Of a stretch of 64,000 bases of DNA, positions 8,081 through 63,930 are shown piece by piece. The DNA is from Alphaproteobacteria bacterium. GTDB taxonomy: Bacteria > Pseudomonadota > Alphaproteobacteria > Rs-D84. Position numbers and translations under genes: made by a program. Where the stretch lies: NCBI GenBank assembly GCA_015062525.1, contig SUUM01000004.1, positions 24,547-88,546 on the forward strand, given 5' to 3'. The notes beneath the pieces are model-generated. The model ran no database searches. It was not told where the DNA came from and worked only from the letters and a program-made list of their open reading frames with translations. How positions within the stretch are numbered: the stretch's first letter is position 1; each line of letters begins with the position of its first letter.

Positions 8081-9355
<1,275 letters not shown>

Positions 9356-16930: not shown

Positions 16931-16931
16931 T

Positions 16932-49080: not shown

Positions 49081-49290
49081 GAATTAAAACGTACCATTTG
49101 GTGCGTTTTTTCGTTGGGTTTCCCTGCCTTTTTGATTTTTGTGTTGGGTGGCGAACTTGCGCGGGGCTGGCTATTTTTATTTTATTCGGGGCATGTAATT
49201 CCAACCCATTTCCGCCCCATGCCCCCAAACCACCAAAAACTGTGATGCAACAATAAAAAAAGGCGCCAGTCTGACGCCTTGCTGTATCAA
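49081..49290. repeat. modular ~300-bp repeat, copy R1 (tRNA-Thr-adjacent, terminator-exit variant)
   Basis: Shares the gcgttttttcgtt...attttattcggggc...ctgtgatgcaacaataaaaa core with R2, R3 and R5; ends in a hairpin terminator for the minus-strand gene. Confidence 0.8.
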
Positions 49291-49587: not shown

Positions 49588-49683
49588 ATGTTTCTCCTTT
49601 TTACTTACATAAAACTAACAGAATATTTTCATAAAATCAATCTTCAATAAGACATGTACAAGCTGAATAATACTTGTTAAAAC

Positions 49684-49985
49684 GCTATGTGAGGCGATGT
49701 GTGATGCAGGCGGACCAAATCAACTGGCCGACCACTATTGGAAATCTTGGACTTTGGACTCGCCTTGGCATCCCGACAAAGGCTACCCGTTTAAAAACGC
49801 ACCAAACGGTGCGTTTTTTGTTTAGATTTCCCTGCCCTGTTGGATTTTGTGTCGGGTGGCGAACTTGCGTGGGGCGGGCTATTTTTATTTTATTCGGGGC
49901 GTGCAATTCCAACCCAATCCCGCCCCATGCGCTAAAAATACAAAAAACTGTGATGCAAAGTGTGATGCATTGTGGTATAGTTAAC
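49684..49985. repeat. modular repeat copy R2 (promoter-exit variant, TGgTATAGT extended -10 at 49973..49981)
   Basis: Contains the gctatgtgaggcgatgtgtgatgcaggc head, a tRNA-Thr 3'-end-like stretch (CGCCTTGGCATCCCGACAAAGGCTACC), terminator AAAAACGCACCAAACGGTGCGTTTTTT, and TGTGATGCA direct repeats before the -10. Confidence 0.85.
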
Positions 49986-51201: not shown

Positions 51202-51492
51202 GGCGATGTGTGATGCAGGCTGAGTAATCAACTGTCTGAAACCATTGGAAATCTTGGACTTTGGACTCGCCTTGGTATCCCGACAAAGGCTACCCGTTTA
51301 GAAACGCACCAAATGGTGCGTTTTTTCGTTGGTGGTTCCCTGCTCTTTTGATTTTTGGATTGGGCGCAACACCCATGCGGGGCGGGAGGGTTTTATTTTA
51401 TTCGGGGCGCACAAATCCAACCCAAATCCGCCCCACGACCCCAAAACACCAAAAACTGTGATGCAAAGTGTGATGCAGTGTGGTATAATTTG
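51197..51492. repeat. modular repeat copy R3 (promoter-exit variant, TGgTATAAT at 51481..51489)
   Basis: Same architecture as R2; perfect extended -10 consensus 25 bp upstream of the next ATG. Confidence 0.85.
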
Positions 51493-52622: not shown

Positions 52623-53261
52623 CTACACTGCTTGCGATAACCAATCCGGCATATCAATCAGCGTGAATTTTTCACCATCATATTCCAGTTTGAAATATTC
52701 TGCATTTGGCATTCCGCCACGTGGCCATTTTATATCTGTGAATTGTTTGATTATATTTTTCGCCACCCCCGTATGTGTTGCAATGGCGATTGTTTTGCCG
52801 TCTGAGTTTTTTACGATATCCAATATCGCATTACGAACACGCGCAATAAACATATTATAACTTTCACCGTTTGGTGGGACATAATCGTCATTAGACAGCA
52901 ATGCAAACGGTGCATAAATTACATCACCTGACATATCAATCGGGGTATCTGCAGGGCTATCAGTCAATTTTACAATATGTCCACAAAAATCACCCATATT
53001 CCATTCACGCAAATCACCATTTTGTATAATCTGTTGGTCGCCAGCCACCGCACGTGCTGTATCCAATGCACGCGACAACGACGAAGAATACACAACATCA
53101 AACTTTATACCCGACAATTTTTGTGCCAATGCTTGTGCCTGGGCCACACCATTGGCATTTAATGGCACGTCCAGCCACCCCTGCATACGTTTTTGGATAT
53201 TTGCGTCTGTTTCGCCATGTCGAAAGATATAAAGTATTTTTTTCATGATAGAATTATACAA
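52623..53261 (-). CDS. histidine phosphatase (phosphoglycerate mutase-like) family protein
   Basis: N-terminal RHGETDAN catalytic motif. Confidence 0.7.
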   Translation of the reverse strand: MYNSIMKKILYIFRHGETDANIQKRMQGWLDVPLNANGVAQAQALAQKLSGIKFDVVYSSSLSRALDTARAVAGDQQIIQNGDLREWNMGDFCGHIVKLTDSPADTPIDMSGDVIYAPFALLSNDDYVPPNGESYNMFIARVRNAILDIVKNSDGKTIAIATHTGVAKNIIKQFTDIKWPRGGMPNAEYFKLEYDGEKFTLIDMPDWLSQAV

Positions 53262-53289: not shown

Positions 53290-53345
53290 ATCTGTTAAAA
53301 TGCTATGTGAGGCGATTTGTGATGCACTAATAAAAAAACCGCCCA
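53290..53345. repeat. partial modular repeat R4 (head motif + terminator)
   Basis: gctatgtgaggcgatttgtgatgca followed by ctaataaaaaaaccgcccaatcgggcgggg. Confidence 0.7.
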
Positions 53346-53361
53346 ATCGGGCGGGGTAATA

Positions 53362-54255
53362 TTACCTGTCGTTTTGGTTGTTATTTTTTGCCCAGGACTT
53401 TTGCATCTGATATTTTATTTCATCAAATCTAAATTCTGCAAAACCAATCAATTCAGACAAAAGCATTTCTTTTTCAGCGCGCGTAAATTTGCGCGGTTTA
53501 TGGGTTGCGACAAAATCCGCACGCATTTGGCGTAATTTTGTAGTCTGTTCCCCTGTTGGCATTTTGTGTGGTGACAAAGCCCTGTCTGTGCGAACAATAT
53601 TATTCTGGCGCAGGTTTATGTACGCCATATCGCCGGGACCTTCGGTATAATTTTGATATTTGAAACCAGTCAGACCAATTGATTCAAAATACAAAATCAT
53701 ACGCTGAAAGAACAAGTTTTCTGCGCTGTGGATATCAAATAATGTTTCCAAACCTAATTCTGTTTGTATTGCTTCCACAGTCATTGTGCTACGCACCGGT
53801 TCACATATCCAATCAAACTGCCACGGCACATCAATGTCCTTATCCAACACCGCTTGTTTTGCTGTTTCAATCTGTTTGCGAAACTCAGATTCGTCATGAA
53901 TATTCAACACACGAATGAAGTCGGCAATTTTATCGCCACACATATACTGAAATAAAACCCCCATAAAGTTCTGCACACTGTGGTCGTTCAGGTCTGGTAT
54001 TTCATCCCAACGCCCAGCCTGCAAATTCACGGGTATTATCTTGGGCTTTGTAATATCAATATTTGGGTCGCGTTTCCATTTTCCTTCGTTCAGATTGGTT
54101 TGTGCATTCACCAATTTGCCAAAGTGTGTCAATGGGCGAAAATAATCAAAATCATAATAAGTGCCATGATACATTGTTAAAGGTTTGCCATCTGTCCCCA
54201 ACAACACCGGCGATAAACAATCGGGCATATCAATAATATATGGAAACGAAACCAT
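53362..54255 (-). CDS. hypothetical protein (297 aa)
   Basis: Start overlaps the GNAT gene stop (operon); no recognisable domain. Confidence 0.5.
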   Translation of the reverse strand: MVSFPYIIDMPDCLSPVLLGTDGKPLTMYHGTYYDFDYFRPLTHFGKLVNAQTNLNEGKWKRDPNIDITKPKIIPVNLQAGRWDEIPDLNDHSVQNFMGVLFQYMCGDKIADFIRVLNIHDESEFRKQIETAKQAVLDKDIDVPWQFDWICEPVRSTMTVEAIQTELGLETLFDIHSAENLFFQRMILYFESIGLTGFKYQNYTEGPGDMAYINLRQNNIVRTDRALSPHKMPTGEQTTKLRQMRADFVATHKPRKFTRAEKEMLLSELIGFAEFRFDEIKYQMQKSWAKNNNQNDR

Positions 54256-54836
54256 TACTTACCCTTATATTCCGACTTTAGTTTCGAAAACAACAGATGA
54301 TTCATATATGTGCCGTCTGGCATTTTATTCGCAGCACGTTCAACACCATCCAGTTGATAACCAGCCTTTTTAATCGAATTTACCGAACAAACATTGCCCT
54401 CCATCGCCTGACGACAGATACGATTTACCCCCAGTTCTTCAAAACCCAATTTATCAATCAGCTTATGCACTTCCTGATTAAAGCCTTGGCCGCGAGCAGA
54501 TTTAATAAACCATACACTGGAACACTGTATCGTATCACAATGGTCTATGTAGTGAAACCGCTGATATCCAACGAATTTGCCATTATGAAAGATATACCAA
54601 ACAACACCGTCTTTATAACCTGCCTCTCGCTGCATCAATTTTAACAGTTCATCGACAGATTCAGGCAAATGATTTTTGTATGATGCTGAATACCGCATAT
54701 ACTGATAATCGGCTGGATTTTCATTTTTCAGCACATCCCACAACATCTGTGCGTTCGCAATAGTTGGCTTTAATACTCGCAACTCTAAACGTTCCGTCTT
54801 AATATCGCGATTAAATATTTCATAAAATTTTTCCAT
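54255..54836 (-). CDS. GNAT family N-acetyltransferase (RimJ/RimL-like)
   Basis: 193 aa with acetyl-CoA-binding motifs (Q/R-x-x-G-x-G/A pattern ARGQGFNQ). Confidence 0.65.
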   Translation of the reverse strand: MEKFYEIFNRDIKTERLELRVLKPTIANAQMLWDVLKNENPADYQYMRYSASYKNHLPESVDELLKLMQREAGYKDGVVWYIFHNGKFVGYQRFHYIDHCDTIQCSSVWFIKSARGQGFNQEVHKLIDKLGFEELGVNRICRQAMEGNVCSVNSIKKAGYQLDGVERAANKMPDGTYMNHLLFSKLKSEYKGK

Positions 54837-54888
54837 CTACTTTGTCCTTTTGTTATCCCATTTATTTTATCACATTTTTTGTTAAAAT

Positions 54889-55195
54889 GCTATGTGATGC
54901 GATGTGTGATGCAGGCGGACCAAATCAACTGTCTGAAAATATTGGAAATCTGGGACTTTGGACTTGCCTTGGCATTCCGACAAAGGCTACCCGTTTAAAA
55001 ACGCACCAAACGGTGCGTTTTTTGTTTGGTTTTCCCTGCCCTGTTGAGTTTTTATGCTTGGCGCGCCACCTGCGCAGGGCGGATGGGTTTTATTTTATTC
55101 GGGGCGTGCAAACGCAACCAAATCCTACCCCACGTCCCCAAAACACCAAAAACTGTGATGCAACAATAAAAATCCGCCCATTTGGGCGGGTTTAT
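54889..55195. repeat. modular repeat copy R5 (terminator-exit variant)
   Basis: Full-length copy ending ctgtgatgcaacaataaaaa + hairpin ccgcccatttgggcgg. Confidence 0.85.
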
Positions 55196-55215: not shown

Positions 55216-55782
55216 TTATTCTGCGTCCTGTTGTTTCTTGCGCAACATTAATTCTGGTTTGCCAGCATTTAATTCTGGCGACACTGCAAAACCCAATCCG
55301 TCTATGAATGATTGAATCTGAGATTTCACTTGCGCCACATCCACATCATCGGCGGTGCAATATTCCACCTCTAAAAACAGCCCCAGATCTGCCACAGTTT
55401 CAAATTCAATTGTATAATCGCCCGCACGGTATGTGCGTTTCAGGTTGTCAATCCGTATCAATTCACGCAACCCCAGCGCATTCATAATATCGCACAAAGT
55501 TGACATATCAGCAACGGTTGTTTCGGATTCATCAGAATACAACCATGTGTCACCGTCAAAATGGTCGTACTTGTACGTGATATAATTTGTGCCGTCTTTT
55601 GCACGTGTGCGACAGCATGCATACAAGCGGCCATTGCTGTCGGGTTGTAAATCTGGGCGCAATGGGTCGTAATAGTATGTATCCACCGTACGTTTATCGC
55701 CCAAGAAGTCAAATTCAGATAATTTACGCAGAACATCTGCTTCGTCTGCGAAAACCTGAACCAAGATTTCAATTTCTTTCAT
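55216..55782 (-). CDS. CYTH-domain protein (triphosphate tunnel metalloenzyme / class IV adenylate-cyclase-like)
   Basis: N-terminal KEIEIL and C-terminal GLFLEVEY motifs typical of CYTH; the Lys of EIExK is replaced. Confidence 0.55.
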   Translation of the reverse strand: MKEIEILVQVFADEADVLRKLSEFDFLGDKRTVDTYYYDPLRPDLQPDSNGRLYACCRTRAKDGTNYITYKYDHFDGDTWLYSDESETTVADMSTLCDIMNALGLRELIRIDNLKRTYRAGDYTIEFETVADLGLFLEVEYCTADDVDVAQVKSQIQSFIDGLGFAVSPELNAGKPELMLRKKQQDAE

Positions 55783-56170
55783 AAGATGCACCCTTTGTGA
55801 TATTCTAAACCGCTTTTTCAGAAATATCAATATTTTCCAATGGAATATAATGTCTGTGACACAAGTAAATCCGCCGGCAGTTGTGGATGGAATAGCAGGT
55901 CCAGGATTGGCACCCAGTGCATATCATCGTGGACACGCAGTTGGATTTCGTATGTGTGGTCCAAAATCTTGTATACGTGCGGAATTACACAAGCAGAAAA
56001 TATTGCGCAACCGATAAGAATCTTTTGTTATCCCGCAATTCAATGCTCACCCAAATTCAACAGATGTCAAAAAGGATTGTATGCTGTGAAAAAATCAGCA
56101 TATATAAACTTTGACAACATAAATATTGTAATCTATACTGATTCTATAACCCCAGCCATAAGGATTTGAA

Positions 56171-57016
56171 ATGCCTGAAAAAAACACCCTGTATGATAAT
56201 TTGCGCAATCCAGTTTCAACAATTGAACGCGGGCAACCAATCCCCAGCGGATTGAACAAGCTGTCTGTGCATGTATGGATTGTAAATGATGCCGGCGAAT
56301 ACCTGTTGCAACAACGCATGGGTACGGCCAAGAAATTTCCAAATATGTGGGGCCAGACTGGTGGCGGGGCAATCGCAGGCGAATCCAGTTGGGATGCGTG
56401 TGTTCGCGAAACAATGGAAGAGTTAGGACTGACACCAGACCCAAAAAAATCTGTATTGGTTGGCACAATTAAGCGACCGATAGATTTCGTTGATGTGTGG
56501 CTAGTGCACAGTAATGTTAAAATTTCTGATTTAAAACCACAGGCAAGCGAGGTGCAATCCGTCAAGTGGGCAACACTGGCGGATATTCAACACATGCAGT
56601 ACGACAATGAATTTATTCCGTCTATTGTTCCAGGGTTTAATATGGTTTTGAATTATCAGAAAATGGTAAATCCCACGCCAGTAAATGCACGTGATTTCTT
56701 GGGCAAATTAGTGCGTGTACAAATGGACAGGCCCCTGGGCAGCAAACATCCAAAACACGGCTTTACATACGAAGTGAATTATGGTTTTATCCCAAACACC
56801 ATATCGGGCGATGGCGAGGAGTTAGATGCGTATGTATTGGGGCCAGATTATCCGTTAAAGGATTTTCTGGGACGATGTATTGCAATCATTCACCGTACTA
56901 ATGACAACGACGATAAACTGATTGTTGTACCGGATGGGTTTGATTTTGCAGATGAATATATTGAACAAAAAACTGCTTTCCAAGAACAGTGGTTCAAGCA
57001 CACGATTATAAGATAA
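56171..57016 (+). CDS. NUDIX hydrolase fused to an inorganic pyrophosphatase-like domain
   Basis: Nudix box GGGAIAGESSWDACVRETMEELGL; C-terminal region matches family I PPase (YEVNYGFIPNTISGDGEELDAYVLG vs E. coli [23 protein letters not shown]). Confidence 0.65.
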   Translation: MPEKNTLYDNLRNPVSTIERGQPIPSGLNKLSVHVWIVNDAGEYLLQQRMGTAKKFPNMWGQTGGGAIAGESSWDACVRETMEELGLTPDPKKSVLVGTIKRPIDFVDVWLVHSNVKISDLKPQASEVQSVKWATLADIQHMQYDNEFIPSIVPGFNMVLNYQKMVNPTPVNARDFLGKLVRVQMDRPLGSKHPKHGFTYEVNYGFIPNTISGDGEELDAYVLGPDYPLKDFLGRCIAIIHRTNDNDDKLIVVPDGFDFADEYIEQKTAFQEQWFKHTIIR

Positions 57017-57035
57017 AATCAAGGGGGGGATAGTC

Positions 57036-57440
57036 ATGCGAACACAAACAACAAGCAGATGTTTAATTGTTCAAGGTGATAGCATCGTTTTATGCAAGCA
57101 CTTGGCTGGCGGTTATTATTTCTTGCCTGGTGGTGGATTGGAAATTGGCGAAACATTGAATCAGTGCATTACACGTGAACTGAATGAAGAAATGGGCGTT
57201 GCAGAATCTGACATCACTATTCATGATGGCATCTTATTGGCTATTGAAAATCAGGGCTATGATTCCAATGGAAATTTCCTGTACGGGATTGAAGTTATTA
57301 AACGTGTGGACATCGATGCAGATGACATAAGCAGCAAAGAGGATTTGATTGGCTTTGAAAAAGTGAAAATTTCTGATTTGCCAGGCACAAAATTATATCC
57401 TGTTGTTATTAAAAATTGGATAATAGAAAGATTCAAATAG
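57036..57440 (+). CDS. NUDIX hydrolase
   Basis: Nudix box GGGLEIGETLNQCITRELNEEMGV. Confidence 0.8.
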   Translation: MRTQTTSRCLIVQGDSIVLCKHLAGGYYFLPGGGLEIGETLNQCITRELNEEMGVAESDITIHDGILLAIENQGYDSNGNFLYGIEVIKRVDIDADDISSKEDLIGFEKVKISDLPGTKLYPVVIKNWIIERFK

Positions 57441-57455
57441 AAGGAACACTTACAA

Positions 57456-58205
57456 ATGACAAGATATTATTGCAGCGGTTTTGACCTTAATAATATTTTT
57501 GGACACGGACTTGGCAAGATGTTCAAAGCCGAACTAGAAGACACAAAGAGCATAGTCTATATTCCTGCTGGTGCGGAAAAAATAGAAAAAGCACGTGCAA
57601 AACATATTCCTAATTTCACAAAGCATTTCAAAAATGTGGGAATAGAATTTGAATCTGTAAATATCATCACGCCCGAACTGTCCCCCGCAGAAGCAAAGGA
57701 TATGATAAAAAATGCAAACTTTGTCATGCTGATGGGTGGTAACCCCTATAAGCAAAAAGACCTTTGTAAAAGTTTGAACATTTTAGACGACTTGAAGAAC
57801 TATAATGGTGTTATGCTGGGGTTTAGTGCGGGTGCTATGATGATGTCTAAATATATCATTATCACGCCTTGTAGTGATGAGTTTCCAAATTTTCATATTG
57901 AGCCAGGTTTAAATCTGGATGGCATTTCAATTTATCCACATAATAACACATCAGACAAGGATTATCCGGAAGAACTTGTTTCTGGTGATGAAGTGTATAA
58001 AAAGTCAGATTTGCTACAGGTTGCCAAAGATTATGGTAAATTCTATCTATTACAGGATAATTTAAGAGAAGATGGCCTAACAGATGTCAGCTTTATCAGA
58101 TGTTCTAATGGTAATGTTGAATTTTATATCGAAAACGATGGCAAGATTTGGTTAGTTGACAAGGATATAACGCTGGTTAAAAATAATGAACCGTTGGACT
58201 TTTGA
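57456..58205 (+). CDS. peptidase S51 (dipeptidase E/cyanophycinase-like) family protein
   Basis: LMGGNPY and GFSAGA (Ser nucleophile) motifs match PepE IVGGGNTF / GWSAGA. Confidence 0.6.
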   Translation: MTRYYCSGFDLNNIFGHGLGKMFKAELEDTKSIVYIPAGAEKIEKARAKHIPNFTKHFKNVGIEFESVNIITPELSPAEAKDMIKNANFVMLMGGNPYKQKDLCKSLNILDDLKNYNGVMLGFSAGAMMMSKYIIITPCSDEFPNFHIEPGLNLDGISIYPHNNTSDKDYPEELVSGDEVYKKSDLLQVAKDYGKFYLLQDNLREDGLTDVSFIRCSNGNVEFYIENDGKIWLVDKDITLVKNNEPLDF

Positions 58206-58524
58206 TAATGATGAATTGTTTGAACTAGTGCGCATAGGTCGAAAACGTGGAACCTGTGGCCGGAATTCTGACGAAGAACCAATGGCAAAAATTGGTGATG
58301 TTCAGGAAATCTATAATAGTCGTGGCGAAACAATACGAATTCAAATTACAGCCGTTCGAAAGTGTCGGTTTTGTGACATTGATGACGCATGGGCAAAAAT
58401 AGAGGGCGAAGGCGACCTGTCCCTGGCATACTGGCGTACGGTTCATATTGAATTTTTTAACAAATACTTTCCCGATTTTCAGGAAACTGATTGGCTGGAA
58501 TTAAACGAGTTTGTGGTTATATAA
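58186..58524 (+). CDS. ASCH (PUA-like) domain protein
   Basis: EGEGDLSLAYWRTVHIEFF pattern typical of the ASCH domain. Confidence 0.55.
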   Translation: MNRWTFDNDELFELVRIGRKRGTCGRNSDEEPMAKIGDVQEIYNSRGETIRIQITAVRKCRFCDIDDAWAKIEGEGDLSLAYWRTVHIEFFNKYFPDFQETDWLELNEFVVI

Positions 58525-59299
58525 CCTCTAATTCAATCCCCACAATGCCGTATTTTGATTCCATTTCGGCATCGTAAAATTTTGATATTGCGGACATCAA
58601 TGCGTTTAGCGATGCGAAACCGGTTCGGGGCATGCTGATTTTTGTGGCCAAGTCTGCAAAACTGCGCGCAATATGCAGGCGAACGATCTTTGCACGAATA
58701 TAATCATTGCGATTTTGCGCATCATATATCAGAATAACGTCGCCGTTGTGCATTCTGCGACGTTTTTCATCATACAGGCACAGTTCAATATCCTTTTCGC
58801 CGGAACGCACCATTTCATAATATTCAGGGCGCAAGCTCATTGAAAATTTACAGTCCAAGTTTGGCAAAATGTGCAGCGCATAAAATTCACGCATATCGTC
58901 AAATGGTGTGATTTTTGGGTTTAATAAGTCGTCGGGGGCAACCCATGCAACCGAAATTTCTTCGGGGCGATTTTCACAGAAATTCAATTCCATATCATCT
59001 GGGACGTGAACGATAAAAAAGTGATGTTCTTCGGCCCATGCGCCACGTTTTTGCGCCCGTTCGGGGGTTGGGTGACGAAATGCATATGGCACCGGAATTT
59101 CAACCACTTGGTCTGCCAGCGCAGATACAGCTTCGCCCAATTCTTCGGTCAGTTCACGCCGCAACGCAGTCAAAAAATCTTCGCCATCATCCAGTCGCCC
59201 GCCAATTGGTCCGTATCCGTTTTCGCCGTATTTTAATAGTGCAACCTGTCCATCACGCACTGGCAAGATATATGCTGAATAACTGATATCTTTTATCAT
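58517..59299 (-). CDS. NUDIX hydrolase fused to a C-terminal ASCH-like domain
   Basis: Nudix box PIGGRLDDGEDFLTALRRELTEELGE; C-terminal YYEMVRSGEKDIELCLYDEKRR..GDVILIY resembles ASCH. Confidence 0.6.
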   Translation of the reverse strand: MIKDISYSAYILPVRDGQVALLKYGENGYGPIGGRLDDGEDFLTALRRELTEELGEAVSALADQVVEIPVPYAFRHPTPERAQKRGAWAEEHHFFIVHVPDDMELNFCENRPEEISVAWVAPDDLLNPKITPFDDMREFYALHILPNLDCKFSMSLRPEYYEMVRSGEKDIELCLYDEKRRRMHNGDVILIYDAQNRNDYIRAKIVRLHIARSFADLATKISMPRTGFASLNALMSAISKFYDAEMESKYGIVGIELEVI

Positions 59300-59301
59300 C
59301 T

Positions 59302-59802
59302 CTATTCCTGGGGTTGTAGGGGTTCAATTGTTTGAATCGTCATATGTATTTCGCCTGATGGCACACTAACGGTTGTTTCATCCCCAACAGATAATCCGAC
59401 CAAGGGATGAACCAGTGGCATATTATATGCGTACTTTTGTTGCGGTATGTCTTCTGCCCCCAATGGCACAATCCCCAGCCTGCATTCTGTTTCTGCGCCA
59501 GTGGTTTCATTTTCTTGGGTCACGCATACCCAGCAATACAGTCCGACTGTTTCTGTGGTTGCCGGCTTATTCCTTGGTACGACAAGCATATTGTCCAGGT
59601 CTGCCAATAAATCAGCGACCAATTTTTCTGTCTGCTTTTCTTCCCTGGTCAAATGTTCATAGGCAAAATTATCATGCCATGTGTTTGTGTCTTCTGTGTA
59701 TGCAGCTGTCTTATCGTTGCGTATCTGGGCCAGTCGCTCTTGCAGCCCTTGAACCTTCCGTTGGGACTTATCAAAGTATTCTTTTGTTACAAAAATTTTC
59801 AT
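59302..59802 (-). CDS. GreA/GreB-domain protein (Rnk-like)
   Basis: C-terminal FKBP-like GreA domain pattern (VGLSVGDETTVSVPSGEIHMTIQTIE). Confidence 0.5.
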   Translation of the reverse strand: MKIFVTKEYFDKSQRKVQGLQERLAQIRNDKTAAYTEDTNTWHDNFAYEHLTREEKQTEKLVADLLADLDNMLVVPRNKPATTETVGLYCWVCVTQENETTGAETECRLGIVPLGAEDIPQQKYAYNMPLVHPLVGLSVGDETTVSVPSGEIHMTIQTIEPLQPQE

Positions 59803-59811
59803 TTCTGTTCC

Positions 59812-60582
59812 TTACAGATTTAATAAAACATCCTTTATTCGTGAACGAACTGCATGGTATTTTGCACGCAAGTCTGCGCCTTGGCCGACCAGATGTTGGC
59901 CAACGGCTGAATTATCAGACACAACCAACAGTGCCGATGCGGGTTTGCCTATAATCTGCATGGCCTTGAAAAAGGTTGCCGTTTCCATTTCTATCAGGGT
60001 TGCGCCCATTTGTCGAAACTCGTCCAAGTGTGCATATTCGCAAGCGATACTGTCGATTGATATTGGTGTCGCATCTTTGGTAGACATACCAACACTTGTG
60101 CAAACTCTCGACAATTCTGCATTTAATTCTGGTGATGAATATGTGCGTTCAAACATCTTTTCTGGACTTAATTTATCATCCAGGTACAATGTTGCGCCAT
60201 TGCCAGATATAGAACATGTTGGAACAATAACATCCCCGATTTCTAGTTCCGGAACCAATGAACCCACCGAGCCAACAAATACAAATTTTGCACAGTTGGC
60301 CGAATGACAGGACAAACAAAAGTCAACTATATTTGGCGCACCAACCTGTAATTGAATATATAAGTATGATTTGCCGTTATGTTTTATACGATGTGATTTT
60401 GAGAATCTGTCTGAATATATTTCAGCAATATCTGTTGTGGCACTATCAAAGACTTTATCAATTGGCCAAGATGGTGCAATAAATACGCAATCAAAATGTT
60501 CGGCAGACGATATTCCATACAGCTGTTGTAACATATCCGAACAAGATATGTTATCCTGACATGATTTGACTATTTTATTCAT
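59812..60582 (-). CDS. PNP/UDP-phosphorylase superfamily nucleosidase/phosphorylase (MTAN-like)
   Basis: FVGSVGSL and IEMETA motifs of the PNP_UDP_1 fold. Confidence 0.6.
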   Translation of the reverse strand: MNKIVKSCQDNISCSDMLQQLYGISSAEHFDCVFIAPSWPIDKVFDSATTDIAEIYSDRFSKSHRIKHNGKSYLYIQLQVGAPNIVDFCLSCHSANCAKFVFVGSVGSLVPELEIGDVIVPTCSISGNGATLYLDDKLSPEKMFERTYSSPELNAELSRVCTSVGMSTKDATPISIDSIACEYAHLDEFRQMGATLIEMETATFFKAMQIIGKPASALLVVSDNSAVGQHLVGQGADLRAKYHAVRSRIKDVLLNL

Positions 60583-61052
60583 TTTGTATCCTTTGATGCA
60601 CTGCGATATGATTTACATTCGGAATATATTTCGCCACGCGCCAATCCCGCCAATGATATACGGGTTGTTGAAACAACGTTCTTCAATTTGGCGACTTCGT
60701 CCAATGTGAAATATTGCATATCGGCACACTTGTCCCCCTCGCAATTACGAATTGTGCCGGTGTATTTTGACACCTCGAAAAAGAAATCAAAAGATTCTGT
60801 GCGACTGGCCAGATTGCTGGTAACGTGTACGCATTTGATGTCGTCGGGCGCAATGTCGATATCCAGTTCTTCTTTGGCCTCACGTATGGCGGCGGCACGT
60901 GCGGTTTCACCTTGTTCAATGTGCCCCGCCGGCAGAACCCACCAACCACCATCATAATTAAAAAAGCCATCATTGCGGAAGAATAATAACACTTTGTCGT
61001 CTTTTTTTATAATCAGGTTTATTACACCCTTGAACATTGCGCGTTCTGCCAT
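60579..61052 (-). CDS. NUDIX hydrolase
   Basis: Nudix box GHIEQGETARAAAIREAKEELDI; 4-bp overlap with the upstream gene. Confidence 0.8.
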   Translation of the reverse strand: MAERAMFKGVINLIIKKDDKVLLFFRNDGFFNYDGGWWVLPAGHIEQGETARAAAIREAKEELDIDIAPDDIKCVHVTSNLASRTESFDFFFEVSKYTGTIRNCEGDKCADMQYFTLDEVAKLKNVVSTTRISLAGLARGEIYSECKSYRSASKDTK

Positions 61053-61317
61053 TTCTTATCCTTTTTCTTATCTTAAACTGCTTTTTACGAAAATTCAATT
61101 ATTTCATATGGCCATTTTTATAATCGATATTTCTAATTCTTCTGGTGTTATACCTGCGTGGTGACTTTTAAGCACAAATGTGTCTGGCCGCTGTTTCAAG
61201 TCATATTTATCAGTTGCCAGCGCAACAAAATCATCAAAAACCGTGATATGATAAGATAAAAAACTTTTTTACACAAAACAGCCAATCGTAAAAAGAAAGC
61301 ACCATTTGGTGCTTTCT

Positions 61318-61832
61318 TTATTTTGTATTTGATTTCATTTTCATCGCTGATTTTACCAAAATATTATCTGGTTTGTTATTTTTTTGCAGGACTTCTGAAA
61401 TCAGATTTATCATAGGTTCACGATGACTGTTCACAAAACTCTTTATCTGATTTTGAATAATTTGCTGGACATCTTTCTCAGAATATTCTTTGAAAAATGC
61501 CGCCGTATTAGTCCAAATACCATATACATTGCCCAAATATAGATTATGCAGGGTTACAGGCTCGCCACGTTTGGCACGAACCCAACCATATTCATTACGC
61601 CCGGCATTAGTAATATGCAATCTCAAAGTCTCTGCTGACTTTACTGTTTTAGGAAACATATCAATATTCAAAGCAAAATTATCTTGAAACTTTACAATTA
61701 TGTTAAAAAATTTAACTGCATAATCATATATTTCTTTACCGTTTGGCGCAGGCCCCAATTTAGATAATTCCTTTTGCATCTGCTCTAGCTGATTCATCGT
61801 TTCAACTTTATTAATAGCTTTTTTAAACATCT
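61318..61832 (-). CDS. hypothetical protein (start at MFKKAINK; the ORF extends further upstream)
   Basis: GGAGA RBS before the internal ATG at 61832; no recognisable domain. Confidence 0.4.
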
Positions 61833-62028
61833 TATCTCCTTTTTTATTTACATTTATTATAACATAAATAAATAAAAAAAAAATAAAATAAAGCAGATAC
61901 AATAAAATCAACATCGGGATGCGAATCAGGACGCCAGATAAAAAAACCTGTACAAACTGAATAAGACTTGAAAACTGCTCTACAGGGCTAAGCGTTATAC
62001 AATTATGCTCAAACAACCGTTTTTTGTT

Positions 62029-62415
62029 TTATCTTGTTTTTTGGCATCTGTTATAGTGTCTGATATTACTAATTTTTTTATTCATTTCACACGCTTCGCT
62101 ATATGATTCCCGGTCGTATACAGGTATTAATACAATTGTTATATTTTGAACACTGTGGCCACAATCGGCTTTTAGCACACCCGATGTATTTTGAACAATT
62201 TTATTTGGTGTTATTTGTTTTGTGTTTATTTTTAGTTTTTTCAACAGTTTTATATTGGCATCAATTGCATTCTTTAAATCATATAAATAATCCTCTACTA
62301 TGGTCCCCCCCAGGGCCAGATTATCTTTTTCAGCTATAAAGAATGGTGGTGTGGTTGAAACAATAAAAATATTGTAATCATTATATATTTCGATTAAATG
62401 CTTCTGTTTTTGCAT
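62029..62415 (-). CDS. hypothetical protein (128 aa)
   Basis: ORF abutting the next gene's stop; no recognisable domain. Confidence 0.4.
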   Translation of the reverse strand: MQKQKHLIEIYNDYNIFIVSTTPPFFIAEKDNLALGGTIVEDYLYDLKNAIDANIKLLKKLKINTKQITPNKIVQNTSGVLKADCGHSVQNITIVLIPVYDRESYSEACEMNKKISNIRHYNRCQKTR

Positions 62416-63930
62416 TTATTTACCTTTTGTTGGTTGGGTGGTTGATGTTAAATCTGATGCACTCACTACTGTATACACGTCTGTTGCTAGACCACTTGCT
62501 TTCGTAGTTGCTTTTACGTCATTTGAAACCGTTTGCACTTGTTTTAGTGTATTTGTCGCTTTCATGCCTTTTATTGCTTTTATAGCATGACTACTGGGAC
62601 TCAGCGAAACCATACTTGCAGCAAAGGCCCCCGTGTCAATAGCATCTTTTATGACTTGATGAAAACTCATCCTATCTACAAGTGTGTTTAATTTGTTTGG
62701 CAGGTCTTTTTCATCTATACACGAGTCTTCAATAGATTTTAACGACTCGTCAAGAATTGCTTGCATATCCGGTGTTGAATTTACCATTGCATATGGAACA
62801 AGGTCATATATTTTATCAACATCGCAATTTTTGCTGTTACATGTGTTACATACATTGCATTTGTCACTGGTGCAAGCTGTTTTACATCCGCACTGATTTA
62901 TTAGATTAAGTATATCAAATCCGCTGGATGTGCCAACATTTTGCTGAATCTTATTCACTTCTGTTAACACTATGGATGTACTTGCTGCAACAATTGCTAA
63001 TGTTCCACCAGAGGCAACTGTGGCGGCAAAAAAACCCAGTGCCACCGCGCCTTCGATCAAAGCATCTACATTTTCTGATGTTTTCGCATCGGGCAAGTCA
63101 CAAATTTGCAGTTTTGGATTGAATCTGGTTTTTACCCCAAATTGGATCCCAAGGGCATTGCATTGTGCTTCACTTACCCCTGTACATCTGCCAGCAACAT
63201 ATTTCCCACCATCTACAAGGCATGCCATTTTTGATTTATCAGCTTGGCTGGTAATGCCACTGAATTCGCTTAGATCATCAAACACAAATTCTATGTTGTA
63301 TGAACCTTTTTCTTTGGTGGTGGTCAGAACACATTCTATTATATCGTCGGATGTACCCTTGACATTTTTACCATAATAAGCTTTTGTCATGGATGCACAC
63401 TCTAAAGATTTAAAATCACTTCCTAATTTAGATTCTACGTATTGACCTATCAGTACCTTGGTTGAATTATCAAATTTTGTTTGATAGCCTTGGAAAATAA
63501 ATGGATCTAGACCGGGATAGGTTTTCACGGACTCATCAGCGGTTTTTACCTTGAAATCAACGTAACAATAATAATTCCTAGTAGGTGTAACTGTACTTCT
63601 ATCTTGTTCATAAGTTGCACTAAAAGCAAATTTGTCAGAAACAACTTTTAGTTTATTACACAGTTCCCCTGTTTTTATTTTTTCACCACCCATACAAACC
63701 GTTTGCTTATTCGGTAAAATTCTGCCGCCGTAAAGTGTGCACAGCCCCTTGAGTGTCCCATATCGCATGTCATCGTCAACAGATTCAACCAGGTCATCAA
63801 ATTCAAATTCGAATACGTATTTGCCATCCGTAGAAGTGCAGGCTAAATAATCATTATTACCATCTTGTCTGTAACGCATCTGGCATTGAATGGTGTATGG
63901 GCCAATTTTTTCATAAACGTATTCTTGCAC
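62416..63930 (-). CDS. hypothetical Cys-rich protein (504 aa) with one predicted TM segment
   Basis: Cys cluster CGCKTACTSDKCNVCNTCNSKNC; hydrophobic stretch ALGFFAATVASGGTLAIVAAS. Confidence 0.45.
   Translation of the reverse strand: MQEYVYEKIGPYTIQCQMRYRQDGNNDYLACTSTDGKYVFEFEFDDLVESVDDDMRYGTLKGLCTLYGGRILPNKQTVCMGGEKIKTGELCNKLKVVSDKFAFSATYEQDRSTVTPTRNYYCYVDFKVKTADESVKTYPGLDPFIFQGYQTKFDNSTKVLIGQYVESKLGSDFKSLECASMTKAYYGKNVKGTSDDIIECVLTTTKEKGSYNIEFVFDDLSEFSGITSQADKSKMACLVDGGKYVAGRCTGVSEAQCNALGIQFGVKTRFNPKLQICDLPDAKTSENVDALIEGAVALGFFAATVASGGTLAIVAASTSIVLTEVNKIQQNVGTSSGFDILNLINQCGCKTACTSDKCNVCNTCNSKNCDVDKIYDLVPYAMVNSTPDMQAILDESLKSIEDSCIDEKDLPNKLNTLVDRMSFHQVIKDAIDTGAFAASMVSLSPSSHAIKAIKGMKATNTLKQVQTVSNDVKATTKASGLATDVYTVVSASDLTSTTQPTKGK

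What the first reader, a model, noticed from the sequence alone, without database searches (positions are those of the whole stretch)
55216..61052. Dense nucleotide-hydrolase island: four NUDIX proteins with CYTH, nucleosidase, ASCH, S51 and GreA-like genes
Within 6 kb there are four NUDIX hydrolases (56171, 57036, 58517, 60579), a CYTH/triphosphate-tunnel protein, a PNP_UDP-fold nucleosidase (IEMETA motif), a stand-alone ASCH protein, an S51 peptidase and a GreA/Rnk-like protein. All follow the last modular repeat of the tRNA-Thr array. Such clustering of nucleotide or nucleotide-sugar cleaving domains is not a standard metabolic operon. It is reminiscent of systems that make or destroy nucleotide signals or damaged nucleotides. 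PNP-like nucleosidases and NUDIX enzymes appear as effectors or anti-defence factors in phage-defence contexts, and ASCH/PUA-like domains bind modified RNA or nucleotides. Possible roles are signal-nucleotide clearance, a counter-defence set, or nucleotide-pool sanitation.
Basis: partly seen in the sequence, partly recalled or inferred. Interest (0 to 1): 0.8.

Follow-up and report, generated by a model that had tools for sequence, protein, structure and literature searches.

The report
Nucleotide-hydrolase gene cluster of Candidatus Enterousia
A tiny-genome gut bacterium that cannot make its own nucleotides carries a tight, constantly reshuffled cluster of nine small enzymes that take nucleotides apart, most likely to clean up and recycle scavenged nucleotides rather than to fight phages.

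Summary
Window 55.2-61.1 kb holds nine intact genes: a CYTH protein, four NUDIX proteins with intact NUDIX boxes, an S51 peptidase, a stand-alone ASCH protein, a Gre-family paralogue and a PNP/UDP-fold protein. It also missed two gene remnants, a fifth NUDIX and a PF01663 phosphodiesterase.

The contig belongs to Candidatus Enterousia (order Rs-D84). These genomes are about 1 Mb or smaller and lack nucleotide biosynthesis.

In about 45 related loci the same gene set recurs around NUDIX-ASCH or the PNP-like gene. Its order, content and flanks differ between loci. It is about 25-fold enriched within 5 kb of the anchor gene. Neighbouring genes show discordant identities, which indicates gene-scale recombination.

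None of the proteins reaches a curated housekeeping family cut-off (MutT, NudC, MtnN). None matches a known defence system beyond generic NUDIX similarity. No close relatives were found in phage contigs.

Best reading (about 0.5): an accessory toolkit that sanitises and salvages nucleotides in an obligate nucleotide scavenger. A conflict role is not excluded. Novelty: a new variant of a known kind. Interest is moderate.

The parts
55216..55782 (-). CYTH / triphosphate-tunnel metalloenzyme (188 aa). The N-terminal motif reads KEIEIL, so E-x-E is kept but the Lys of ExExK is Leu.
   Evidence: Pfam PF01928 E=8e-13. NCBIfam TIGR00318 66.3 bits against a 57.95 cut-off. The closest solved chain is the Sulfolobus protein deposited as 'Triphosphate tunnel metalloenzyme Saci_0718' (7ns8), E=3e-9. 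The start and motif are conserved in L012, L023 and L025.
55848..55979 (-). Remnant of a fifth NUDIX gene: the C-terminal 44 codons of a NUDIX_4-type gene that is intact in L012 and L013.
   Evidence: tblastn 68-70% identity to residues 67-110 and 80-123 of the L012 and L013 NUDIX proteins. No intact ORF is present.
56111..56139 (+). Promoter-like site (TTGACA-17-TATACT, 11 of 12 matches), 32 nt upstream of the plus-strand operon.
   Evidence: Consensus scan. This is a pattern match only.
56171..57016 (+). NUDIX (residues 30-147, intact box) fused to a truncated family-I pyrophosphatase-like module (residues 165-281).
   Evidence: Pfam NUDIX 5e-15 and Pyrophosphatase 2e-8, the latter covering profile positions 31-103 of 153. 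In the PDB alignment the equivalents of R43, Y51, Y55, D65, D70, D97, D102 and K104 are kept and D67 is Glu; E20, K29, E31, Y141 and K142 are absent. The module exists as a separate 117-aa gene in L013 at 84% identity. The NUDIX half exists as a separate 150-aa gene in L082 at 69% identity.
57036..57440 (+). Small NUDIX hydrolase (134 aa) with a canonical box.
   Evidence: Pfam 3e-9. NUDIX box found by regex. Only distant MutT and NudI-type PDB hits.
57456..58205 (+). Peptidase S51 family protein (249 aa), carrying a GFSAG nucleophile-elbow motif.
   Evidence: Pfam PF03575 1e-12. Far below the PepE and cyanophycinase equivalog cut-offs. No solved relative by sequence.
58186..58524 (+). Stand-alone ASCH protein (112 aa) with motifs GRKRGTC and EGEGD. 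Its 3' end overlaps the convergent NUDIX-ASCH gene by 8 nt.
   Evidence: Pfam PF04266 6.5e-16. Closest solved chains are 3s9x and 1t62. The same convergent overlap is seen in L017, L018, L025, L052 and L055.
58517..59299 (-). NUDIX-ASCH fusion (260 aa), used as the NUDIX-ASCH anchor gene of the cluster. The NUDIX box is intact. The ASCH octapeptide is of the G-K-E-R type (SGEKDIELC; this copy has Cys where relatives have Arg174).
   Evidence: Pfam NUDIX 8.5e-13 and ASCH 1.2e-9. Family alignment A1. The ASCH half matches PH0355 and PF0455. An exhaustive search finds only one other full-length 50%-identity cluster.
59302..59802 (-). Lineage-specific Gre-family paralogue (166 aa): coiled coil plus C-terminal domain, with an invariant tip DTNTWHDNFAYE.
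   Evidence: Pfam GreA_GreB 1.6e-9. Far below the GreA and GreB equivalog cut-offs. Only 54 homologue clusters were returned, 45-97% identical, and the only one carrying an organism name is an Alphaproteobacteria MAG. Alignment A3. AF2 model pLDDT 88. Foldseek top hits are GreA, Gfh1, GreB and then Rnk.
59812..60582 (-). PNP/UDP (NP-I) fold protein (256 aa), probably a hydrolytic purine nucleos(t)idase.
   Evidence: Pfam PF01048 2.6e-20. AF2 model pLDDT 90. Foldseek gives MTAP, UP, MTAN and PNP all at TM about 0.7 and 15-22% identity. Alignment A2 shows invariant E198-M-E200 and S222-D223-N224. The phosphate-binding Arg of the RxGS/TxG motif is replaced by a hydrophobic residue (FVGSVGSL).
60579..61052 (-). 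MutT-like NUDIX hydrolase (157 aa), first gene of the minus-strand operon. Its stop overlaps the next gene's start (ATGA).
   Evidence: Pfam 1e-17. Distant MutT and NudB-type PDB hits. It lies directly upstream of NUDIX-ASCH in at least 10 related loci.
61107..61232 (-). Remnant (last 42 codons) of the PF01663 phosphodiesterase / nucleotide pyrophosphatase gene that precedes the cluster in other Enterousia genomes.
   Evidence: tblastn 62% identity to residues 292-333 of the L082 protein. Translation. The intact layout TyrRS > Phosphodiest > NUDIX157 is seen in L018, L021, L025 and L087.
55170..55193 (.). GC-rich palindromic hairpin with T-runs on both strands, terminator-like. It marks the right-hand boundary after the CYTH gene and lies inside the last repeat module.
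61292..61319 (.). Palindromic terminator-like hairpin at the left-hand boundary, between the unknown 232-aa ORF and the phosphodiesterase remnant.
54879..55189 (+). Last ~300-nt repeat module (R4) of the tRNA-Thr-linked cassette array. It separates the cluster from the S41 / HisPhos / unknown / GNAT cassette.
   Evidence: The same modules lie next to the clusters in L052 and L055.
52623..53261 (-). Histidine phosphatase (RHGE motif), a neighbouring-cassette gene that belongs to the recurring set.
   Evidence: Pfam 1.7e-44. A 65%-identical copy sits beside NUDIX-ASCH | ASCH in L055 and L056.
54255..54836 (-). GNAT acetyltransferase (Acetyltransf_3 type), a neighbouring-cassette gene of a family that recurs with the PNP-like gene.
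   Evidence: Pfam 3.4e-11. GNAT genes lie beside PNP-like genes in L082, L084-86, L094 and L095, and in 11 of 50 distant loci.

Best explanation
This is a lineage-specific accessory gene cluster of Candidatus Enterousia (Alphaproteobacteria, order Rs-D84). I propose that it dismantles, cleans up and recycles nucleotides that the cell has to scavenge.

Proposed working, all inferred:
- The four NUDIX enzymes cut the diphosphate link of non-canonical or surplus (d)NTPs and NDP-X compounds to NMPs.
- One NUDIX enzyme carries a pyrophosphatase-like module that would bind or hydrolyse the released PPi.
- The CYTH enzyme removes triphosphate.
- The two ASCH domains remove N4-acyl groups from cytosine nucleos(t)ides or recognise other modified bases. 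In the NUDIX-ASCH fusion this would bring a modified-base reader or deacylase and a pyrophosphohydrolase onto one substrate.
- The PNP-fold enzyme lacks the phosphate-binding arginine, so it would hydrolyse the N-glycosidic bond of purine nucleos(t)ides to base plus ribose(-5-P).
- The S51 peptidase (replaced or joined by an S66 peptidase in relatives) would remove aminoacyl or peptidyl adducts.
- The histidine phosphatase and the PF01663 phosphodiesterase seen nearby or in relatives would handle phosphomono- and diesters.
- The Gre-family paralogue probably binds the RNA polymerase secondary channel. It lacks the first catalytic acidic residue, so it may couple transcription to the state of the NTP pool. 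This is the weakest step.

The cluster is built from individually exchangeable genes that recombine among Enterousia lineages, each moving with its own ribosome-binding site.

Shown here: gene and domain identities, intact motifs, recurrence, mosaicism and the host lineage. Inferred: substrates, pathway logic and the Gre paralogue's role.
For: 1. Host biology. The NUDIX-ASCH gene family maps to Ca. Enterousia / Rs-D84 MAGs. These genomes are about 0.75-1.0 Mb and lack nucleotide, amino-acid and lipid biosynthesis (PMC12306168).

2. Eight of the nine proteins fall in hydrolase families, each plausibly acting on a different bond of a nucleotide. For those whose motifs were read, the key motifs are present or largely so.

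3. ASCH proteins are experimentally shown N4-acetylcytidine amidohydrolases in nucleoside or nucleotide salvage. Both octapeptide types, GKTR and GKER, are active. The window's two ASCH domains keep the Lys plus Thr/Glu residues.

4. Domain fusions link the activities.
- NUDIX and ASCH are fused in both orders in other, unrelated metagenomic protein clusters.
- The NUDIX and mini-PPase halves occur both fused and split within the lineage.

5. The gene set stays together while everything around it changes. Examples:
- L052: NUDIX157-PNP-Gre-NUDIX/ASCH | ASCH-S66-S51-NUDIX.
- L017: the same without PNP.
- L018 and L025: TyrRS-Phosphodiest-NUDIX157-NUDIX/ASCH | ASCH-NUDIX/PPase.
- L082, a distant genome found independently through the PNP gene: S66 | PNP-ASCH ... 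NUDIX-GNAT-Phosphodiest-TyrRS.
- Overall enrichment is about 25-fold: 2.3 against 0.09 per 10 kb.

6. There is no defence signature. No close relatives were found in phage contigs, apart from one IMG/VR contig (L081) carrying the Gre paralogue, and PHROGs and viral fold searches gave only generic hits.

7. The PNP-like protein lacks the phosphate-binding Arg but keeps the Asp that protonates purine N7 in MTAN and PNP. That fits a nucleosidase.
Against: - No enzyme activity or substrate is shown. All substrate assignments are inferences from family membership.
- No transporter, kinase or phosphoribosyltransferase gene that would complete a salvage route lies in the cluster.
- Content varies strongly between close relatives, and adjacent genes have discordant identities (L012: PNP 98% and Gre 97% but NUDIX-ASCH 78%; L026: NUDIX157 83% but NUDIX-ASCH 55%). 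The ASCH half also diverges faster than the NUDIX half. These are features more typical of conflict genes than of core metabolism.
- In distant relatives NUDIX-ASCH sits beside restriction and mobile-element genes.
- The Gre paralogue and the S51/S66 peptidases have no obvious place in nucleotide sanitation.
- The pyrophosphatase-like module lacks several catalytic residues.
- Outside Rs-D84, PNP-like homologues are not enriched for NUDIX neighbours.
Confidence: 0.5

Rival explanations
1. Conflict module. In one form the cluster is a defence or counter-defence set that destroys nucleotide immune signals or depletes nucleotides. In a second form it is a filter that keeps modified nucleotides out of the cell's own DNA, so that its modification-dependent restriction enzymes (Mrr, GmrSD, DpnI types) do not attack the chromosome.
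For: - Gene-scale turnover, discordant identities and faster ASCH divergence.
- More distant NUDIX-ASCH alleles sit next to type I R-M plus GmrSD plus methyltransferases (L002). Others sit next to an integrase, a SLFN-type helicase with NUDIX, and a resolvase (L004/5).
- Further copies sit next to an integrase, Mrr and an ADP-ribosylglycohydrolase (L007), or next to DpnI and a UvrD-like helicase with NUDIX (L013).
- A recent comparative analysis links bacterial TRIP4-like (GKER) ASCH domains to R-M systems and predicts that they act on modified bases or on nucleotides released from degraded nucleic acids (bioRxiv 10.64898/2026.08.01.741249).
- PNP-fold ATP nucleosidases are known immune effectors (bioRxiv 10.1101/2023.01.24.525353).
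- The variable region has a lower GC content than the core.
Against: - There are no PADLOC hits beyond generic NUDIX similarity.
- There is no sensor, cyclase, TIR or SAVED partner. The PNP-like protein is stand-alone, with no regulatory domain.
- None of the six proteins tested has close phage relatives.
- In genomes of about 1 Mb the few variable loci probably collect all accessory genes, so adjacency to R-M genes is weak evidence.
- The Enterousia-type layout next to TyrRS and the phosphodiesterase is retained at more than 45% protein divergence.
Confidence: 0.17
2. No joint function. The locus is simply a recombination hotspot in a very small genome where unrelated small accessory 'house-cleaning' genes accumulate and decay.
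For: - Every gene is individually dispensable across relatives.
- Two gene remnants lie within the cluster.
- The cluster is contiguous with a repeat-delimited cassette array.
- Genes are swapped together with their own ribosome-binding sites.
Against: - The same families co-occur around two independent anchors while the flanks change. Enrichment is about 25-fold.
- Domain fusions and fissions (NUDIX-ASCH, NUDIX-miniPPase) argue for shared substrates.
- Stop/start overlaps (ATGA) are preserved after every swap, which indicates selection for co-expression.
Confidence: 0.15
3. Self-protection against nucleotide-type or aminoacyl-nucleotide antibiotics, such as microcin-C-like 'Trojan horse' compounds. 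Peptidases, an acetyltransferase and NUDIX enzymes would detoxify the toxic adenylate mimic.
For: - Relatives add an S66 peptidase to the cluster (L013, L020, L052, L082). From my own knowledge, S66 is the family of MccF and LdcA.
- An Acetyltransf_3 GNAT lies in the next cassette. From my own knowledge, this is the RimL and MccE type.
- A TyrRS gene and an ABC-F gene are frequent neighbours.
Against: - The TyrRS and ABC-F genes are probably single-copy backbone genes flanking the hotspot.
- S66 is absent from this window.
- The S51 protein is far below the PepE cut-off.
- No test of MccF-type specificity was possible.
Confidence: 0.08
4. RNA-end and RNA-modification turnover coupled to transcription. 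NUDIX enzymes would decap NAD-, Np4N- or triphosphate-ended RNA, CYTH would act as an RNA triphosphatase, and ASCH would erase tRNA ac4C. The Gre paralogue would deliver or regulate this at RNA polymerase.
For: - A full-length Gre fold with an invariant tip.
- The NUDIX half of NUDIX-ASCH gives its best, though weak, hits to RNA pyrophosphohydrolase and Ap4A hydrolase.
- A near-invariant Tyr lies 16 residues after the NUDIX box. From memory of Dunn et al. 1999, this is a marker of ApnA hydrolases.
- ASCH proteins can deacetylate tRNA ac4C.
Against: - All the NUDIX hits are far below cut-offs.
- No RNA-binding domain is present.
- The Gre paralogue is absent from many versions of the cluster.
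Confidence: 0.1

Closest known systems
'House-cleaning' NTP pyrophosphohydrolases (MutT, NudB, NudG, NudI, MazG type)
   Same: Small cytoplasmic NUDIX enzymes with intact NUDIX boxes. The closest solved relatives of NUDIX157 and NUDIX134 are MutT, NudB and NudI-type proteins. The presumed role is removal of non-canonical nucleotides.
   Different: None reaches any equivalog cut-off. Four are packed into 5 kb and two are fused to other domains. Known house-cleaning genes are, from my own knowledge, usually dispersed.
ASCH amidohydrolases YqfB (E. coli) and EOLA1 (human), which deacetylate ac4C in nucleoside/nucleotide salvage
   Same: ASCH fold with the catalytic Lys plus Thr/Glu of the octapeptide motif. 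The salvage context fits a nucleotide auxotroph.
   Different: Here one ASCH domain is fused to a NUDIX domain and a second, of the 3s9x/1t62 type, stands alone next to it. The substrate is unknown. The window's fusion has Cys instead of the motif's Arg.
NP-I family nucleosidases (MTAN/MtnN, AMP nucleosidase, futalosine hydrolase) and the PNP-fold ATP nucleosidase immune effectors (Detocs DtcC, Cap17)
   Same: The same fold, the EME and SDN motifs, and probably hydrolytic rather than phosphorolytic action.
   Different: Only 15-22% identity to any solved member. Far below the MtnN and AMP nucleosidase cut-offs. It has a 45-residue N-terminal helical extension. It has no sensor or receiver domain and no partner genes, unlike the immune effectors.
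Gre-family secondary-channel factors (GreA, GreB, Gfh1, Rnk)
   Same: Coiled coil plus C-terminal globular domain. Foldseek top hits are GreA, Gfh1 and GreB.
   Different: The tip is an invariant DTNTWHDNFAYE. The position of E. coli D41 is Thr and that of E44 is Asp (the E. coli sequence is from memory). The family returned only 54 protein clusters, the only organism-named one an Alphaproteobacteria MAG. It is encoded inside a hydrolase operon.
Chromosomal integron cassette arrays
   Same: A run of small, individually exchangeable accessory genes, partly separated by repeated modules and next to a conserved anchor. From my own knowledge, integron cassette pools are rich in GNAT and NUDIX genes.
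   Different: No integrase and no attC-like sites. Inside the hydrolase cluster the genes abut or overlap with no repeat between them. The ~300-nt modules resemble the tRNA-Thr flank.
CYTH triphosphatases, such as the solved Sulfolobus chain deposited as 'Triphosphate tunnel metalloenzyme Saci_0718'
   Same: The best solved match. Most tunnel residues are present.
   Different: The Lys of ExExK is Leu. NCBIfam files the protein under class IV adenylate cyclase, so cyclase activity cannot be excluded.

Membership tests
NUDIX hydrolase superfamily | NUDIX box GX5EX7REUXEEXGU within a PF00293 domain | tested here: met
   Four proteins, Pfam E between 3e-9 and 1e-17. All four boxes are intact.
Housekeeping NUDIX equivalogs (MutT, NudC, RppH, NudI, NudE and others) | Score above the NCBIfam curated cut-off | tested here: not met
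   The best scores are 20-46 bits against cut-offs of 95-260 bits.
ASCH amidohydrolases (YqfB/EOLA1 type) | ASCH fold with the octapeptide motif carrying the catalytic Lys and Thr or Glu | tested here: met
   The fusion has SGEKDIEL(R/C), with invariant G167, K169 and E172. The stand-alone protein has GRKRGTC. Activity itself is not testable here.
Nucleoside phosphorylase-I fold (PNP_UDP_1) | The fold, plus the E-M-E and S-D-x motifs | tested here: met
   Pfam 2.6e-20. AF2 pLDDT 90 and Foldseek E about 1e-17. The motifs are invariant in A2.
Phosphorolytic PNP/UP/MTAP enzymes | Phosphate-binding arginines (E. coli PNP R24 and R87, the latter in the RxGS/TxG motif) | tested here: not met
   Where S. 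solfataricus MTAP has Arg in FIRYGTTGAL, the window protein has Phe (FVFVGSVGSL). That column is hydrophobic throughout A2. No Arg occurs in the conserved D31..P37-x-W39 segment.
MtnN / AMP nucleosidase equivalogs | Score above the NCBIfam cut-off | tested here: not met
   28.9 against 169 bits and 36.4 against 264 bits.
CYTH / triphosphate tunnel metalloenzymes | CYTH domain with the N-terminal ExExK motif and acidic/basic tunnel residues | tested here: inconclusive
   The domain is present, and TIGR00318 scores above its cut-off. E3 and E5 are present but the Lys is Leu in all Enterousia copies.
Family I inorganic pyrophosphatase | The full ~170-aa fold with E20, K29, E31, R43, Y55, D65, D67, D70, D97, D102, K104, Y141 and K142 (E. 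coli numbering, from memory) | tested here: not met
   Only profile positions 31-103 of 153 are matched. The central Asp cluster, R43, Y55 and K104 are kept. The equivalents of E20, K29 and E31 are Asn, Asn and Arg. The C-terminal Y141/K142 region is missing.
Gre transcript-cleavage factors | Coiled coil plus C-terminal domain, with two acidic tip residues (D41, E44) | tested here: inconclusive
   The fold is met. The tip has Thr at position 41 and Asp at position 44, within an invariant DTNTWHDNFAYE. It is far below the GreA and GreB cut-offs. RNA polymerase binding is not testable here.
Peptidase S51 (PepE, cyanophycinase) | PF03575 domain with the Ser-His-Glu triad | tested here: inconclusive
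   Pfam 1.2e-12. The GFSAG and PH motifs were seen by eye in the translation. It is far below the PepE and cyanophycinase cut-offs. There is no solved relative to align.
Known anti-phage defence systems (PADLOC-DB) | A match of the component proteins to a system's models, with the partner genes present | tested here: not met
   Only generic NUDIX similarity to the single-gene candidate PDC-S07, plus one E=0.005 hit for the PNP-like protein.
PNP-fold ATP nucleosidase effectors (Detocs, CBASS Cap17) | A PNP domain fused to, or encoded with, a sensor or signalling partner (two-component proteins, CD-NTase/SAVED) | tested here: not met
   The protein is single-domain and no such neighbours are present.
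Phage-encoded anti-defence genes | Homologues in phage genomes | tested here: not met
   Viral contig scans for six of the proteins found no relatives. The one exception is a Gre-paralogue hit on a contig (L081) that looks like Enterousia DNA. PHROGs gave only generic hits.
Integron | An IntI integrase and attC sites between cassettes | tested here: not met
   No integrase domain among the ORFs of 50-64 kb that were scanned. Junctions inside the cluster carry no repeats. The ~300-nt modules are tRNA-flank-like.
tRNA-linked genomic island | Insertion next to a tRNA gene, with a duplicated tRNA 3' segment and an integrase | tested here: inconclusive
   The variable region starts at tRNA-Thr, and the flank is repeated three to four times. 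GC content is lower. No integrase is present.

The most novel reading that the evidence does not exclude
The cluster could be a conflict device of an obligately dependent, ultra-small bacterium.

NUDIX-ASCH, together with its fast-evolving ASCH reader, would act as a filter for foreign modified nucleotides. Such a filter would let the cell feed on other organisms' and phages' nucleic acids while running modification-dependent restriction enzymes (Mrr, GmrSD, DpnI). Alternatively, the set would destroy nucleotide immune signals of a host or partner cell.

The Gre-family paralogue, with its invariant non-catalytic tip, would gate RNA polymerase according to the state of the nucleotide pool.
Probability: 0.15. 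Interest if true: 0.8.

Novelty: new variant of a known kind. Interest (0 to 1): 0.45.

Why it matters
Ca. Enterousia and its order are abundant in animal and human guts, are uncultured, and have genomes of about 1 Mb or less with no nucleotide synthesis. How such cells obtain clean nucleotide pools is unknown.

A conserved but plastic cluster that takes up about 1% of the gene count with nucleotide-cleaving enzymes points to nucleotide clean-up as a key adaptation. It also supplies concrete enzymes to test:
- an uncharacterised NUDIX-ASCH fusion, an architecture that recurs in both domain orders elsewhere;
- a NUDIX plus mini-pyrophosphatase fusion;
- an arginine-less PNP-fold nucleosidase family;
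- a lineage-restricted Gre paralogue with an invariant, non-canonical tip.

The locus is also a clear example of gene-by-gene recombination inside operons of a reduced genome.

Tried and rejected
- **PADLOC scan of all nine proteins plus the unknown 297-aa protein.** Only generic NUDIX similarity, so the locus cannot be filed under a known defence system.
- **Viral-contig scans for NUDIX-ASCH (profile), PNP-like, Gre paralogue, NUDIX-PPase, NUDIX157 and ASCH112, plus PHROGs and a BFVD fold search.** No phage relatives. The single Gre-paralogue hit (L081) carries other Enterousia cluster genes. Phage origin rejected.
- **NCBIfam.** Housekeeping equivalogs rejected.
- **Integron idea.** Junction sequences show no attC-like repeats and no integrase is present. 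Rejected.
- **Rfam at a permissive threshold over 48.9-61.5 kb.** No RNA family other than tRNA-Thr.
- **Is the unknown 399-aa gene (50002-51201) the TyrRS seen beside the cluster elsewhere?** No Pfam (JGI precomputed annotation), NCBIfam or tblastn signal. Rejected.
- **Is the NUDIX association of the PNP-like family general?** In about 50 loci from other taxa only GNAT is mildly enriched; NUDIX is not. The dense cluster is therefore specific to Rs-D84.
- **Fold search against afdb50.** The library was unavailable.
- **Taxon names for the independent NUDIX/ASCH fusions.** The sources carry none.
- **Terminator and promoter scans.** Overall no more hits than in shuffled sequence. Only the three sites listed in parts are mentioned, and only as pattern matches.

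Full report
**1. What is in the sequence**

ORF listing and Pfam scans confirm nine intact genes between 55216 and 61052.

- On the minus strand at the right edge lies a CYTH gene, 55216-55782. The upstream TTG at 55830 is unlikely to be the start, because the JGI gene call and the homologues begin at MKEIEIL.
- A plus-strand operon follows, with near-zero spacers. It contains NUDIX plus a pyrophosphatase-like module (56171-57016), NUDIX (57036-57440), peptidase S51 (57456-58205) and ASCH (58186-58524).
- A minus-strand operon converges on it and overlaps it by 8 nt. It contains NUDIX157 (60579-61052), a PNP/UDP-fold protein (59812-60582), a Gre-family protein (59302-59802) and a NUDIX-ASCH fusion (58517-59299).
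- All four NUDIX boxes are canonical, and they are the only four in the 64 kb window.

- the last 44 codons of a fifth NUDIX gene at 55848-55979(-);
- the last 42 codons of a PF01663 phosphodiesterase / nucleotide-pyrophosphatase gene at 61107-61232(-), directly upstream of NUDIX157.

Palindromic terminator-like hairpins lie at 55170-55193 and 61292-61319 and bracket the cluster. An 11-of-12 sigma-70-like site precedes the plus-strand operon. All three are pattern matches only.

**2. Where it sits**

The window is a JGI metagenome contig.

- Positions 1-49 kb carry core genes: enolase, an aminoacyl-tRNA synthetase, MurJ, PolA, EF-Ts, S2, PGK and acetate kinase.
- A variable region of lower GC content starts at tRNA-Thr, 49005-49080.
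- Beyond the window's end, the source contig reaches GrpE, TIM, a SurA-like protein, DsbA and RecO.
- Between the tRNA and the cluster, ~300-nt modules delimit small cassettes. The modules resemble the tRNA gene plus its 3' flank.
- The cassette next to the cluster holds an S41 peptidase, a histidine phosphatase, an unknown 297-aa protein and a GNAT.
- No integrase is present.

**3. Whose genome**

- Homologues of NUDIX-ASCH are annotated as Alphaproteobacteria MAGs.
- The scan of one genome per species returns Candidatus Enterousia and related Rs-D84 MAGs from ruminant and human guts.
- Published analyses describe Enterousia genomes of 0.75-1.0 Mb (the wider set compared there ranged up to 1.6 Mb). 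They lack pathways for nucleotides, amino acids and lipids, and they lack respiration (PMC12306168).

**4. Is the clustering meaningful?**

I fetched about 45 non-redundant related loci. They were anchored either on NUDIX-ASCH or, independently, on the PNP-like gene. I annotated them with the window's proteins.

None of the window's flanking genes recurs in these loci. The hydrolase genes do recur, in many combinations:
- L052: NUDIX157-PNP-Gre-NUDIX/ASCH | ASCH-S66-S51-NUDIX.
- L017: the same without PNP and S66.
- L018 and L025: TyrRS-Phosphodiest-NUDIX157-NUDIX/ASCH | ASCH-NUDIX/PPase.
- L021: NUDIX157-PNP-NUDIX/ASCH | Gre.
- L012: CYTH-hydrolase-DUF3977-PNP-Gre-NUDIX/ASCH-x-NUDIX.
- L013: Gre-NUDIX/ASCH | S66-miniPPase-TyrRS-DpnI-NUDIX.
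- L055: NUDIX/ASCH | ASCH-x-x-HisPhos.
- L082, a distant genome whose PNP-like protein is 54% identical: S66 | PNP-ASCH ... NUDIX-GNAT-Phosphodiest-TyrRS.

Members of the set occur at 2.3 per 10 kb within 5 kb of the anchor and at 0.09 per 10 kb further away.

The commonest layout has TyrRS and an intact phosphodiesterase upstream. The phosphodiesterase stump in the window shows that its copy derives from that layout through a rearrangement.

**5. How the cluster changes**

- Adjacent genes have discordant identities to the window. In L012, PNP is 98% and Gre 97%, but NUDIX-ASCH is 78%. In L052, NUDIX-ASCH is 90%, but PNP is 78% and Gre 65%. In L026 and L027, NUDIX157 is 83-87%, but NUDIX-ASCH is 55%.
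- Within NUDIX-ASCH, the ASCH half diverges faster: 41-46% against 58-65% in distant alleles. One allele is 87% in the NUDIX half and 63% in the ASCH half.
- Junction sequences show that each gene moves with its own ribosome-binding site, and that the ATGA stop/start overlap is restored after each swap. No repeat lies at the junctions.
- This is gene-scale recombination inside operons, not integron-type capture.
- The ~300-nt modules also lie beside the clusters in L052 and L055.

**6. What the proteins are**

- **Family assignment.** None reaches a curated NCBIfam cut-off except CYTH against TIGR00318.
- **CYTH.** It is closest to the solved Sulfolobus chain deposited as 'Triphosphate tunnel metalloenzyme Saci_0718'. 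Leu replaces the Lys of ExExK.
- **PNP-like protein.** It gives a confident NP-I model. The model is equally distant from MTAP, UP, MTAN and PNP. Its family keeps E-M-E and S-D-N but lacks the phosphate-binding arginines. I therefore predict a hydrolytic purine nucleos(t)idase.
- **Pyrophosphatase-like module.** It keeps the central Asp cluster but lacks the N- and C-terminal catalytic residues. It also occurs as a separate 117-aa gene at 84% identity. The NUDIX half occurs alone in L082.
- **ASCH domains.** Both keep the catalytic Lys plus Thr/Glu of the octapeptide motif. That motif was shown to be required for N4-acetylcytidine deacetylation in YqfB, TthASCH, EOLA1 and TRIP4.
- **Gre-family protein.** It has the full coiled-coil plus globular fold. 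Its tip is an invariant DTNTWHDNFAYE, in which the position of E. coli D41 is Thr. The family returned only 54 protein clusters, 45-97% identical, of which the only organism-named one is an Alphaproteobacteria MAG.
- **NUDIX-ASCH distribution.** An exhaustive HMMER search of 1.84 billion representatives finds only one other full-length 50%-identity cluster of this NUDIX-ASCH family. It also finds independent NUDIX-ASCH and ASCH-NUDIX fusions elsewhere. This argues that the two domains share substrates.

**7. Interpretation**

The best-supported reading is an accessory toolkit for nucleotide sanitation and salvage in an obligate nucleotide scavenger. Each enzyme would handle one bond class of non-canonical or surplus nucleotides. 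NUDIX-ASCH would combine a modified-base deacylase or reader with a pyrophosphohydrolase.

Support comes from:
- the host's auxotrophy;
- the uniformly hydrolytic, sensor-less, single-domain proteins;
- the experimentally established salvage role of ASCH enzymes;
- the domain fusions;
- the long-term retention of the gene set next to tyrS and the phosphodiesterase across deep divergence;
- the absence of defence-system or phage signatures.

The following count against it, or are at least left unexplained:
- the rapid turnover of content and alleles;
- the placement of distant NUDIX-ASCH alleles beside GmrSD, Mrr, DpnI, R-M systems and integrases;
- the Gre paralogue;
- the peptidases.

A recent comparative study links bacterial GKER-type ASCH domains with R-M systems. 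It predicts action on modified bases or on nucleotides released from degraded nucleic acids. This is compatible with both the sanitation reading and a restriction-linked 'modified-nucleotide filter'. I therefore keep a conflict reading at about 0.15-0.2.

**8. Verdict**

All folds are known. What is new is the lineage-specific, recombining assembly, together with several uncharacterised architectures. I rate it a new variant of a known kind with moderate interest (0.45).

Noticed in passing
window 49065-49259, 49674-49975, 51198-51483, 54879-55189; partial copy at 53293-53354: The ~300-nt repeat modules align with the tRNA-Thr gene plus its 3' flank. The ~190-nt downstream part, with a terminator hairpin, is 76-85% conserved. 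The tRNA-sized part is replaced by a degenerate stretch that shares only CCGACAA..ACC with the tRNA 3' end. The modules delimit gene cassettes. They also lie beside the hydrolase clusters of two other Enterousia contigs: L052 at 15188-15318, 16975-17088 and 17913-17982, and L055 at 12934-12987, 14745-14779 and 16913-17110. There is no integrase and no Rfam match.
   Followed up: partly
window 53362-54255 (-): An unknown 297-aa protein. Its N-terminus (LTMYHGTYYDFDYF) gives a weak hit to ART-PolyVal, the ADP-ribosyltransferase domain of polyvalent proteins (E=0.004). It also weakly hits a 1664-aa phage protein family. It does not recur in any related locus.
   Followed up: partly
window 61318-63930 (-) and beyond the window end (L001 5010-9265): A run of ORFs (232, 128, at least 504 and 357 aa) with no Pfam, NCBIfam or PHROG match. 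The largest is Cys- and Thr-rich. None recurs in the related loci.
   Followed up: no
L013 7983-15085; L010 3256-5908; L018, L021, L025, L087 and L082: A TyrRS-type synthetase gene (399 aa) is the commonest neighbour of the cluster. Other aminoacyl-tRNA synthetase genes, an ABC-F protein and radical-SAM genes also recur nearby. These are probably the conserved backbone of the hotspot, but a link to aminoacyl-adenylate chemistry was not excluded.
   Followed up: partly
L081 (IMG/VR UViG_3300000304_000212) 8001-9193: A contig filed as viral carries the Gre paralogue (93% identity) convergent with NUDIX134 (95% identity). It looks like Enterousia chromosomal DNA, possibly next to a prophage.
   Followed up: partly
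L084-L086 and about 50 other loci, L105-L166: Distant homologues (30-38% identity) of the PNP-like protein in other taxa, at least one from a Clostridia MAG. They often sit next to a GNAT acetyltransferase: 11 of 50 loci, or 17 of 206 near genes against 6 of 207 far genes. In one group they sit next to GNAT plus a metallophosphoesterase upstream of an oligopeptide ABC transporter.
   Followed up: partly
window 58517-59299 (-), residue 174: The window's NUDIX-ASCH has Cys at the Arg position of the ASCH octapeptide (DIELC), whereas almost all relatives have Arg. According, the importance of this Arg differs between ASCH proteins.
   Followed up: no
P0311, P0307; L012 8430-8699: Relatives of the NUDIX half of NUDIX-ASCH are fused elsewhere to an AAA_33 kinase-like domain and to DUF3977. 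DUF3977 also occurs as a separate small gene inside the L012 version of the cluster.
   Followed up: no
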